Assembly: GCF_964213995.1 (NCBI RefSeq)
Contig: NC_135802.1
Coordinates: 142,476,001 to 142,540,000, forward strand
DNA: 64,000 nt
From: Mustelus asterias
Lineage: Eukaryota
Direction: 5' to 3'
The position numbers were made by a program, and so were the translations under genes. Shown here one piece after another: positions 5,177 through 51,120 of the stretch; the first letter of the stretch is position 1; each line of letters starts with the position of its first letter. The notes beneath the pieces are model-generated. The model did no database searches and was not told where the DNA came from. It was given only the letters and a program-made list of their open reading frames with translations.

Positions 5177-5422
5177 AGTTCAGTGGAAAGATCATTTAGA
5201 TCTGAAACATCAGCCGGAATTTTACCGCCCCGCCAGCCACGGGAATCGGAGCAGGCGAGGGGTGGACAATGCGACAGTCCATGGACCTCGATCGCCTTGA
5301 AACTGCAAAATCCCGCCCAACAACTCTGCTTCTCTCCACAGATACTGCCAGACCTGCTGAGTTTATCCGGCATTTTCTGTTTTTATTTCAGATTTCCAGC
5401 ATCCACAGTTTTTTGCTTTTAT
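5177..5422 (+). mobile_element. Penelope-type terminus family 1 with degenerate hammerhead, interrupted by a MITE
   Basis: agtt CAGTGGA A AGATC-attta-GATCT GAAA C ATC, then MITE, then aactct...ctctccacagatactgccagacctgctgag tail shared with 5496, 26519, 50947. Confidence 0.7.
5212..5318. mobile_element. PIF/Harbinger-like MITE (short family)
   Basis: TIR-like ends agccggaatttt / aaaatcccgccc; 3-bp flanks atc/aac. Confidence 0.7.
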
Positions 5423-5495
5423 CCAACCAAGTGTGCCTAAATCCTCTCGACCTGATGCAGTTGTGTTGAACTCTATTTAAGAGAGGCATAAATTA

Positions 5496-5597
5496 CTGAC
5501 GAGGGGTCATCCAGACTCAAAACGTTGGCTCTATTCTCTCTCCACAGATGCCATCAGACCTACTGAGATTTTCCAGCATTTTCTGTTTTTGTTGTGT
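5496..5597 (+). mobile_element. Penelope-type terminus family 1 with minimal type I hammerhead, TSD-flanked
   Basis: CTGACGA G GGGTC-atcca-GACTC AAAAC GTT (G12>A); 17-bp direct repeat gaggcataaattactga at 5483-5499 and 5598-5614. Confidence 0.8.
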
Positions 5598-5624
5598 GAG
5601 GCATAAATTACTGATTTTTAAAAT

Positions 5625-5910
5625 TATTTATTATTAGTGTCACAAGTAGGCTTATATTAATGGTGCAATTATGTTACTGTAAAAATCCACTAGTCGCCAC
5701 ACTCCGGCGCCTGTTTGGGTACACTGAGGGAGAATTTAGAATGGCCCATGTACCTAACCAGCACGTCCTTCAGACTGTGGGAGGAAACTGGAGCGCCTGG
5801 AGGAAACTCACGGGGAGAACATGCAGACTCCGCACAGACAGTGACCCAAGCCAGGGATCGAACCCATGTCCCCAGTGCTTTGAGGCAGCAGTGCTAACCA
5901 CTGTGCCGGC
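5625..5910 (-). mobile_element. V-SINE, HE1-type head with alternative tail B
   Basis: tRNA-like head and V-domain remnant; tail ...taagcctacttgtgacactaataa. Confidence 0.85.
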
Positions 5911-5944
5911 CCATAGGTTCAGTGCAACATAAGCATTTACAGAA

Positions 5945-20293: not shown

Positions 20294-20762
20294 TTAGAAA
20301 CTTAACAACCTTTCAGCAAAGACAAGGAACAATTCTGTCCGAATCCCTGGCCATGATGGATTCCTAGCTGGTTGTTGTAGTGATATTTATTGGAGGTTGA
20401 ATTCTCTTTCTGCTGCTCATCTCGATCTATTAAGCTTCATATTGAAGTCGAGTCTCGGCTCACTAAGGAGTTTTTGGGCAGTCCCTGTTTCCAGGGCAAC
20501 CAAGTAACTGCTGCTCTGTGGTGCTGCCAGACCGGTAGACAGAGAAAGCTTGTCTGAAACACATTGTCTCAGTGCAGCATTGTTGGATCCAGTTTTTATT
20601 GCATGTTCCTGCCATCGTTTGAAACATGCTTTTCTTAAAACAAAAAGTGTGAAAAAAACATCCAAATAGAATCAGGCTCCCAGAAGGTGAAATTAGAGCA
20701 GAAACTGGTGGAACACTCAGCTGGTCAGGCAGCATCTGTGGAGAGAGTAACAGAGTTCACAG

Positions 20763-25775: not shown

Positions 25776-26518
25776 TTGGCTTGTTAACAAGCTCAAATAA
25801 CTCGATTACTTATTTAAATATGGTGGGTGGGATGCCAATTTCAGCAGCTCCCCCTCAATCTTATGGAGGTGAGTTTGAAGGTAAGCAGGAAGGTAGGTGG
25901 TGGGGGGGGGGTGAGTGTTATTTTCCACGTGCCCCTGCCAACAACTACACCTGGCAGGAACATGTATAATTCAATCCCTTGTTGCATCTGTTGCCAACTG
26001 AGCTCAATTGCTTTACAAAAACAACAAGATTGTGACTGTAACACCAAGTAGGCATTTGTCCAATATAACACTGAGTTAAAGCAGTAATAAAAAAGATATA
26101 AATTGGAGATAGTAAAAAAAACCTCTTGATTAGTGTGCGAGATTTGAGTATGAACATGTTAATGTAATTGGATGACATTTCTTCTATTAAATGGGCTAAC
26201 ACTTGGATTAAAATTGCGGACCCATGCTGATGCAGCACAGCATGCTTTCACCCGAGTGTTCCATCACAGAGTCTATCCCCCTGGGAGCCAGGATTAGATA
26301 ATGAAGCATCATATTTCATTGTTCCCTAGCTGAGTGTTTTAGTTAGCATTCCAATCCATCTAGCAATTGCTGCTTTTAATTGCCACACTGGAAACGGGGG
26401 CTACAATTACCAATTTCTCCCTCACTATCTGTAACTAGTATTTAAACGTCGATAATTAGTTGGTGTTGGTGCCCATTGGACCAATGCAGAGTCACCGTGC
26501 CACTGGGGAGTCAAGTTA

Positions 26519-26652
26519 AAAGCAAATTACTGCGGATGCTGGAATCTGAAACCAAAAGAGAAAATGCTGGAAAATCTCTGCAGGTCTGGCAGCATCTGTA
26601 AGGAGAGAAAAGAGCTGACGTTTCGAGTCCAGATGACCCTTTGTCAAAGCGG
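26519..26652 (-). mobile_element. Penelope-type terminus family 1, TSD-flanked
   Basis: Same tail as 5177/5496/50947; aagtta at 26513-26518 and 26653-26658. Confidence 0.78.
26614..26650 (-). ncRNA. Minimal type I hammerhead ribozyme motif with U3-A8 core variant
   Basis: Minus strand: gct TTGACAA A GGGTC-atctg-GACTC GAAA C GTC agc; stems I and II pair, stem III is the palindrome ACGT. Confidence 0.68.
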
Positions 26653-26658
26653 AAGTTA

Positions 26659-50505: not shown

Positions 50506-50946
50506 ATATATATCCAGGAAAGATGGCAGCCATTCTAGCTGTTGAACTGTATCATTGCTGCCATTTGGAACCATCTTATTTAAATTCTCCACGCTGTCCC
50601 TTTGCGAAGCAACATTGTAAAGTAATAACAGCAATGTTCAAAATGATAAAGGAATTCAATTGAACCTCAGTCTTCTGTTACTCACCTGGGATACTTTTAT
50701 TTAACAATTGCAGATAACAATTTTGATGGTCATAGCTAAGAGCTTTTGTTTTGTATGACGGAACAAGAGAAATGCATTAACTGATCATGCTTGATCTTGA
50801 AGGAAGATGTCCATTGCTTGCTTTATAAAACCATTGTAATTATAGCTGTGGTATTTCATATATTAGTTCTACAGGAACCTGCTCTCAATGCCAGTGAGGG
50901 TAACAATCAGAGAAAATCATCACGAATACACTGCGACCAGAGAAAA

Positions 50947-51047
50947 GCTCTGATGAGTCATCCAGACTCAAAACGTTAGCTCTGTTCTCTCTCCACAGAT
51001 GCTGTTAGACCTGCTGAGATTTTCCAGCTTTTTCTGTTTTCGTTTAT
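50947..51047 (+). mobile_element. Penelope-type terminus family 1 with hammerhead, TSD-flanked
   Basis: gct CTGATGA GTC-atcca-GAC TC AAAAC GTT agc; flanks gaccagagaaaa (50935) / gaccagggaaaa (51048). Confidence 0.78.
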
Positions 51048-51120
51048 GACCAGGGAAAACCTTGATCTTCCCCTTCTGTACATCTGAGGTGCTGCAGAAA
51101 GGGATCATAGCTGTCTTAAT

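What the first reader, a model, noticed from the sequence alone, without database searches (positions are those of the whole stretch)
5483..5614. Family of ~100-135-bp TSD-flanked mini-elements consisting only of a hammerhead plus tail
Seen: copies at 5496-5597 (17-bp TSD), 26519-26652 (6-bp) and 50947-51047 (12-bp, one mismatch) all start within about 5 nt of the CUGANGA core. A fourth copy at 5177 has the same layout but no TSD I could see. At 5496 the target itself supplies CTGA as microhomology. Established: Penelope-like elements carry minimal type I hammerheads in their terminal repeats, and retrozymes are non-autonomous hammerhead retroelements. Inference: a ribozyme-headed SINE-like unit mobilised in trans by a shark PLE, with a non-random 5' boundary at the ribozyme edge rather than at the cleavage site.
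Basis: partly seen in the sequence, partly recalled or inferred. Interest (0 to 1): 0.7.

Follow-up and report, generated by a model that had tools for sequence, protein, structure and literature searches.

The report
Penelope stubs stop at transcription start
These 100-135-base repeats are the ribozyme-bearing end pieces of a protein-coding Penelope-like jumping gene, not a separate family, and most begin at one fixed base 30 letters behind a TATA box, so they are likely DNA copies that ran off the front end of the element's uncut RNA, a genomic record of how these elements copy themselves.

Summary
The copies and their target-site duplications are real. Walking upstream in the genome shows the same hammerhead+tail is the terminal repeat of a ~3.3-kb Penelope-like element (RT, Neptune-type zinc-finger linker, GIY-YIG). 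The three window copies belong to three subfamilies, each with long endonuclease-coding relatives.

That is 0.13 ends per base against about 0.004 on either side, and two sequencing runs show the same peak. There is no comparable peak at the cleavage site (+36). +1 lies 30-31 bases behind a TATAAA shared by all three subfamilies.

The stubs lack that promoter and have no diagnostic bases, so they are not a SINE. They are likely run-off cDNAs primed at the internal 'tail' sites of the uncut transcript. All 19 complete head-to-head pairs join one long-tail and one short-tail arm, which suggests double priming.

No RNA 5' end was mapped. The scan noted the same pattern on other DNA (several genomes and this one). 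My six literature searches did not find it in print.

The parts
5483..5499 (+). 5' target-site duplication (17 bp); its last 4 bases CTGA double as element +5..+8 (microhomology)
5496..5597 (+). Subfamily-A stub, about +5 to +102, short-tail type; hammerhead core 5496-5526 (cleavage would follow 5526), GAAA decayed to AAAA; about 4 extra bases before the TSD
5598..5614 (+). 3' target-site duplication (17 bp)
5177..5422 (+). Older, degenerate stub starting at +1, long-tail type, interrupted by an unrelated insertion; no significant TSD
5215..5320 (.). Unrelated ~105-bp insertion with imperfect terminal inverted repeats, inside the 5177 copy
26513..26518 (-). 3'-side TSD (6 bp) of the minus-strand stub
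26519..26652 (-). Subfamily-B stub, +2 to +134, long-tail type, U3-A8 core variant; 2 extra bases at the 5' junction
26653..26658 (-). 5'-side TSD (6 bp; not above chance by itself)
50935..50946 (+). 5' TSD (12 bp, one mismatch); its last A doubles as +1
50946..51047 (+). Subfamily-C stub, +1 to about +103, short-tail type; 3-base deletion after the core and GAAA decayed
51048..51059 (+). 3' TSD
20688..20757 (-). Fifth, degenerate tail copy; alignable only from about +38

Best explanation
The stubs are the hammerhead+tail terminal repeat of an endonuclease-bearing Penelope-like retrotransposon, and they are likely run-off cDNAs: the element's RT-endonuclease would prime at an internal tail site (about +103 or +134) on the uncut leader of its transcript and copy back to the RNA's predicted start (+1). 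Shown: the link to RT+GIY-YIG ORFs, the 5' pile-up at +1, TATAAA at -30/-31 in three subfamilies, two 3' end sites, the long+short pairing of inverted arms, and TSDs. Inferred: (1) +1 is a Pol II start. (2) The template is not ribozyme-cleaved. (3) The free cDNA end is resolved by microhomology to the target (5496), by annealing of the self-complementary AGCT end to a second cDNA primed from the other target strand (head-to-head pairs), or by a jump to an internal RNA site. (4) Stubs carry no promoter and would be dead ends. Templates may be full transcripts (cis) or read-out from promoter-bearing truncated copies (trans); this was not distinguished.
For: Long relatives: the homology extends >1.1 kb upstream into a GIY-YIG ORF and on through the RT to near-unit-length copies; subfamilies B and C also carry the EN region upstream. 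5' ends of young arms (identity >=0.90, 3' end >=+90) in 1.4 Mb of position-picked tiles plus a tail-only query: 33 of 53 at -5..+6. The hazard is 0.129/nt against 0.0044 (+13..+38) and 0.002-0.007 upstream, p about 1e-19 and 1e-15; tiles alone give 18 of 28. Independent runs: the most frequent 5' loose end is +1 in both (357 and 302 contigs), summed depth rises about 30-fold and 24-fold across it, and the majority letters before +1 end in the mirror-like TCAG. GTATAAAT is shared by A, B and C, with TATAAA 30, 30 and 31 bases before +1, while the spacer differs. 3' ends are bimodal, about +100-111 and +126-134, like the two internal RT start sites ('tail') of PAc, where uncut RNA was the dominant substrate (PMC11167929). 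In 28 head-to-head pairs no arm extends past -5, 25 have an arm reaching -5..+9, and 19 of 19 pairs with both 3' ends intact are one long + one short (0.49 expected per pair). Among 15 copies that carry the 5' internal region, several also start at about +1, and 4 of 10 internal-to-3'-repeat junctions land at -6..+5. No diagnostic sites separate stubs from long copies.
Against: No RNA 5' end was mapped; the start site is predicted from motif and spacing only. The stretch before +1 also reads as a polypyrimidine tract plus AG, and in D. virilis an intron ends at the 5' end of helix I (PMC4209133). The mapped D. virilis Penelope promoter is internal and TATA-less (PMC2377424), so the promoter type differs from the one tested PLE. 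Only 12 of 44 stubs have a TSD scoring >=9. The base before +1 is G in 8 of 12 non-B stubs but C in 6 of 8 B stubs, which a simple cap-copying model does not explain. A few arms end at +34..+38 (L019, L248, L266, B146 and clipped or interrupted copies). Several long-copy starts (6 of 15) lie at +12 to +111, not at +1. Templates were chosen for having a TATA-like motif, so conservation inside subfamily A is partly circular. Samples are small and the tiles come from large contigs only.
Confidence: 0.75

Rival explanations
1. Solo repeats: unit-length elements (+1...ORF...+134) inserted first, and recombination between their two 100-134-bp direct repeats removed the middle, as with solo LTRs. +1 would still be the RNA start.
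For: It gives the same boundaries and TSD. Unit-length copies starting near +1 exist. 'Solo pLTRs' were ascribed to recombination or deletion in Adineta (PMC3846280 passage).
Against: Long copies are steeply 5'-truncated (staircase; 8 of the 40 best places start within the first 14 bases of a 1.6-kb mid-element query), so full-length insertions are a small part of the long class. Stubs outnumber long copies 33 to 5 (18 to 1 in tiles). Repeats this short recombine poorly (recalled, not tested).
Confidence: 0.07
2. A separate non-autonomous SINE-like or retrozyme-like family with its own source genes, mobilised in trans.
For: Fixed 5' and 3' boundaries, TSDs, about 47,000 young copies by extrapolation, no ORF.
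Against: Stubs exist in subfamilies A, B and C, each matching its own long relatives. There is no diagnostic site after multiple testing, and long-short distances are intermediate. The TATA box lies outside the stub, and no tandem arrays were seen.
Confidence: 0.06
3. The boundary is set by RNA processing or structure other than transcription start: splicing at the YAG at +1/+2, or RT release at the base of hammerhead stem I.
For: A pyrimidine tract plus AG precedes +3 in all three subfamilies. An intron ends at helix I in D. virilis Penelope (PMC4209133). Nine of 53 arms were called at +3, and stem I begins exactly at +1.
Against: Stubs share no upstream exon: mean identity 5.1 of 20 bases over 820 pairs. 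In 12 TSD-defined stubs the TSD overlaps the start or is separated by 1-8 bases or by mirror-image element pieces. +1 outnumbers +3. By eye, several +3 calls are G-to-A decay or internal palindromes. A stalling RT should stop at the 3' side of the stem (about +40), not after unwinding it (inference).
Confidence: 0.08
4. Ordinary random 5' truncation, or ends made by hammerhead self-cleavage (+36).
For: PLE copies are commonly 5'-truncated (PMC8557442). A few arms end at +34..+38.
Against: The hazard is about 30-fold higher at -5..+6 than on either side. No young tile arm ends at +13..+35. Of the 3 tile calls at +36..+38, one is an interrupted copy and two are alignment clips by eye.
Confidence: 0.02

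Closest known systems
EN+ Penelope-like elements, Neptune/Nematis type (PMC8557442, passages; PMC3846280, passages)
   Same: [quoted passage not shown] A TATA+Inr in a pLTR was noted in Adineta.
   Different: The commonest insertion here is a 100-135-bp stub with a hard 5' limit at a predicted start site. The passages read describe 5' truncation without such a peak.
PAc (Poseidon, Anolis carolinensis) internal initiation (PMC11167929, main-text parts 1-2 of 4)
   Same: Two adjacent internal RT start sites downstream of the hammerhead define the tail; both target strands are extended; hammerhead cleavage is not needed.
   Different: Different clade. The text read does not map a transcription start or describe run-off stubs or long+short paired arms. 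Its supplementary figures could not be seen.
Minimal type I hammerheads in pLTRs (PMC4209133, parts 1-2 of 4)
   Same: Short helix I, unpaired base before helix II, ACGU palindrome in place of helix III, U3-A8 variant in subfamily B; most motifs occur singly and were ascribed to truncated PLEs.
   Different: That paper proposes self-cleavage to make the RNA ends. Here the ends map to +1, not to the cleavage site.
Non-LTR retrozymes (10.64898/2026.07.22.740005, part 1 of 5 and passages)
   Same: Non-coding, type I hammerhead, PLE pLTR origin.
   Different: Retrozymes are defined as tandem arrays with two or more hammerheads that give circular RNA. These stubs are dispersed monomers or head-to-head pairs with one boundary at +1.
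Minus-strand strong-stop DNA of LTR elements; twin priming of L1 (both recalled, no call)
   Same: A short cDNA from a priming site near the RNA's 5' end to the cap; two primers on one insertion giving an inverted arm.
   Different: Here priming would be target-primed and the short product is integrated; both arms copy the same leader.

Membership tests
EN+ Penelope-like element (parent) | RT followed by C-terminal GIY-YIG endonuclease in one ORF | tested here: met
   Pfam GIY-YIG E=3.6e-4, just under the curated cut-off; RT-like GVxxG and YIDD motifs upstream in broken copies
EN+ Penelope-like element (parent) | pLTR / partial tandem or inverted ends, optional tail | tested here: met
Neptune/Nematis type | CX2-5CxxC linker before GIY-YIG | tested here: met
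   against the definition in PMC8557442
Neptune/Nematis type | RT phylogeny placing it in Neptune rather than Nematis | not tested
   no reference proteins or tree
Minimal type I hammerhead | Core CUGANGA (or U3-A8) / GAAA, helices I and II, ACGU palindrome | tested here: met
   91% of cells paired against 17-46% for slid controls; covariation weak (28 of 500 shuffles; 10 real rows plus one 1-base filler). Two of the three main window copies have a decayed GAAA.
Minimal type I hammerhead | Self-cleavage | not testable with these tools
   needs an in vitro assay
SINE | Own internal promoter or small-RNA-derived head | tested here: inconclusive
   The TATA box lies outside the stub and Rfam found nothing in the window; no dedicated A/B-box scan was run
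SINE | Own source-gene lineage (diagnostic bases distinct from the partner element) | tested here: not met
   no significant site inside the core in A (36 long/13 short), B (8/30) or C (5/16); the lowest B p-values are alignment-end artefacts
Non-LTR retrozyme | Head-to-tail tandem units, each with a hammerhead | tested here: not met
   single stubs or head-to-head pairs in 1.4 Mb of tiles and the query loci
Non-LTR retrozyme | Circular RNA | not testable with these tools
   only contigs were available

The most novel reading that the evidence does not exclude
The stubs are integrated strong-stop-like intermediates of Penelope transposition. A dimeric RT-endonuclease primes from both cut target strands at the two tail sites of one capped, uncut leader. 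Both cDNAs run to the start site, where the self-complementary AGCT (the 5' strand of hammerhead stem I) lets them anneal head to head or jump to another RNA site. One mechanism would then explain pLTRs, inverted pLTRs and the one-sided tail.
Probability: 0.4. Interest if true: 0.75.

Novelty: new variant of a known kind. Interest (0 to 1): 0.5.

Why it matters
How Penelope-like elements make their pseudo-LTRs, inverted ends and one-sided tail, and what their hammerhead does, is still open. If +1 is the start site, tens of thousands of genomic copies show that the template is usually the uncut leader, that the ribozyme forms the first 35 bases of the transcript, and that two priming sites are used together. 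This gives exact positions (+1, about +103, +134) for direct tests. It also warns that such stubs will be mis-annotated as SINEs or retrozymes.

Tried and rejected
RNA evidence: no RNA holder listed on record, only Logan contigs, so nothing can be said on expression or start sites. The first laying was dominated by a private variant of the chosen copy and was used only as a lead. A subfamily-A tail-only genome search returned nothing (common words are skipped), so the HHR-blind query sample covers subfamily B only. The tile sample stayed at 1.4 Mb. Cap-derived G at -1: enriched in non-B stubs (8 of 12, p=0.001) but absent in B (1 of 8) and equally explained by the AGCT mirror; not claimed. Cleavage-site peak: checked by eye and not found in single stubs. 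Shared upstream exon: none. Rfam: no hit. MFE folding of one stub recovered stem II and a partial stem I only. Rows dropped before counts: six duplicate loci (L007, L250, L252, L256-258; L001 left out as the window's own copy), arms under 0.90 identity or with 3' end before +90 (28 of 83 tile hits kept; looser cut-offs show the same peak plus clipped old copies), and two chance TATA-like flanks removed from the templates. In one search some long rows were offset by indels. Literature searches found no paper describing a start-site pile-up of PLE stubs; subscription papers, Repbase/Dfam entries and supplementary figures were not visible.

Full report
Observation. The three copies and their duplications are at the stated places: 17 bp around 5496-5597, 6 bp around 26519-26652 (minus strand) and 12 bp with one mismatch around 50947-51047. 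Against shuffled flank pairings, TSD scores of 8 or more occur in 10 of 40 stubs and 0 of 116 controls, while 6-bp matches occur by chance (16 of 40 against 13 of 116). The fourth copy starts at 5177 and is split by an unrelated ~105-bp insertion with imperfect inverted ends; a fifth worn copy lies at 20688-20757. Coordinates below use +1 = the A of AGCT[C/T]TGA, so the core C3 is +5 and cleavage would follow +35.

What it belongs to. A genome search with one stub returned copies of which some ran on upstream. Successive searches extended the homology through a pyrimidine-rich 3' region into a GIY-YIG domain (Pfam E=3.6e-4, just under the cut-off) and RT motifs, to near-unit-length copies of about 3.3 kb that begin and end with the same hammerhead+tail. 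The linker has a CX2-5CxxC motif, which PMC8557442 gives for Neptune and Nematis and not for Penelope/Poseidon; no tree was built. The window's copies fall in three subfamilies (A: 5496; B: 26519, with the U3-A8 core variant described in PMC4209133; C: 50947). B and C long copies also carry the endonuclease region upstream. The hammerhead helices pair in 91% of cells against 17-46% for slid controls, with weak covariation.

The 5' boundary. I sampled 1.4 Mb of position-picked tiles (83 hits, 28 young arms with an intact 3' end) and 30 loci from a tail-only subfamily-B query (25 after removing duplicates). Each arm was aligned to 60 promoter-bearing templates. Of 53 young arms, 33 start at -5..+6 (16 at +1), 4 at +7..+12, 10 further 3', 1 at -7 and 5 beyond -100. 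Ends per base at risk are 0.129 in the peak, 0.0044 at +13..+38 and 0.002-0.007 upstream (p about 1e-19 and 1e-15); tiles alone give 18 of 28. True long copies align on to -40...-150, so the peak is not a reference artefact. In contigs of two public runs, the commonest 5' loose end is +1 (357 and 302 contigs), followed by -2 to +4, and summed depth rises about 30- and 24-fold across it. One run may be the genome's own sample. The cleavage site shows no comparable peak. Upstream of +1 the ends form a smooth staircase. Extrapolated numbers are about 220,000 hits, 74,000 young arms and 47,000 young stubs (rough).

Why there. GTATAAAT is shared by all three subfamilies, with TATAAA starting 30 (A, B) or 31 (C) bases before +1 while the spacer differs. 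This spacing and a pyrimidine-purine start are canonical for Pol II (recalled). PMC3846280 noted a TATA+Inr in a rotifer pLTR. PMC2377424 mapped a TATA-less internal promoter for D. virilis Penelope, so this is not the universal layout. The 3' ends are bimodal at about +100-111 and +126-134, matching the two internal RT start sites that define the tail in PAc, where uncut RNA was the dominant substrate (PMC11167929). A transcript that starts at +1 therefore has a priming site 100-134 bases from its 5' end; copying from it runs off at +1 and gives exactly the stub.

Pairs and jumps. Among 28 head-to-head pairs no arm passes -5 and 25 have an arm reaching -5..+9. All 19 pairs with both 3' ends intact combine one long and one short tail; 0.49 per pair is expected from single arms (36 of 64 long), p about 3e-6 for 18. 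The one-sided tail on inverted pLTRs is known (PMC3846280, PMC8557442); here it suggests priming from both target strands at the two sites. Several junctions are mirror images around AGCT, and the majority letters before +1 in both runs end in TCAG. Among 15 copies picked by the internal 5' region, about six start at or next to +1 by eye, three extend upstream as partial tandems, and six start further in (+12 to +111). Of 10 internal-to-3'-repeat junctions, 4 land at -6..+5, 2 at -11 and -17, and 4 upstream of the TATA box. This fits occasional template jumps after run-off, but the numbers are small.

Not a SINE or retrozyme. Stubs have no diagnostic bases against long copies in any subfamily, and long-short distances are intermediate (105 bases, limited power). 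They exclude the TATA box and form no head-to-tail arrays. They share no upstream exon (mean 5.1 of 20 bases over 820 pairs). In 12 of 44 stubs with a TSD score of 9 or more, the TSD overlaps the start or is separated by 1-8 bases or by mirror pieces of the element. Solo-repeat recombination would give the same ends but needs far more full-length insertions than the steep truncation allows.

Against and open. No RNA end was mapped. The +1/+2 AG could be a splice acceptor. The base before +1 is G in 8 of 12 non-B and C in 6 of 8 B stubs, which remains unexplained. Most stubs lack a clear TSD. Cis versus trans templates were not distinguished.

Prior work. Six searches found the hammerhead, tail and retrozyme papers but none describing this peak. 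Seen: PMC11167929 parts 1-2 of 4 plus a supplement search with no hits; PMC4209133 parts 1-2 of 4; 10.64898/2026.07.22.740005 part 1 of 5 and passages; PMC3846280, PMC8557442 and PMC2377424 passages. Earlier notes of this scan, read after I had recorded the start-site reading, describe the same pattern in other genomes and in another piece of this one. They are not independent support; they prompted my check of the Neptune-type linker.

Verdict. Observation confirmed, interpretation partly supported. The parent is an ordinary Neptune-type PLE. The non-ordinary part is the dominant stub class with a hard 5' limit at a predicted start site and long+short paired arms. New variant of a known kind; interest 0.5.

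Noticed in passing
window 5215-5320: Unrelated ~105-bp insertion with imperfect terminal inverted repeats, inside the 5177 stub; MITE-like.
   Followed up: partly
window 5626-5913 and at least ten other places (families D1-D8, D10-D15): Abundant SINE-like repeats with tRNA-like ends; recalled as resembling shark HE1-type SINEs, not tested. One sits directly behind the 5496 copy's TSD.
   Followed up: no
L296:2611 and L300:2578 (oriented): Two composite copies join the same internal site (about +1268-1270) to the terminal repeat near +1; either a jump hotspot or a shared derivative.
   Followed up: partly
element +41..+59 (e.g. window 5532-5550): A second polypyrimidine-CAG directly before an ATG at +57; a possible splice acceptor or ORF start, so the tail may lie inside the ORF as in PAc.
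   Followed up: no
subfamily B stubs (L245, L246, L268, L039, block B126): The base before +1 is C in 6 of 8 although the template has T; unexplained.
   Followed up: partly
blocks B146, B111, B081, B071, B276, L033, L049: Further, more distant PLE endonuclease families (25-60% identity) in the tiles, some with their own hammerhead tails.
   Followed up: no
L019, L248, L266: Inverted arms ending at +35..+37, at the cleavage site or on the 3' strand of stem I; a possible minor class from cleaved RNA.
   Followed up: partly
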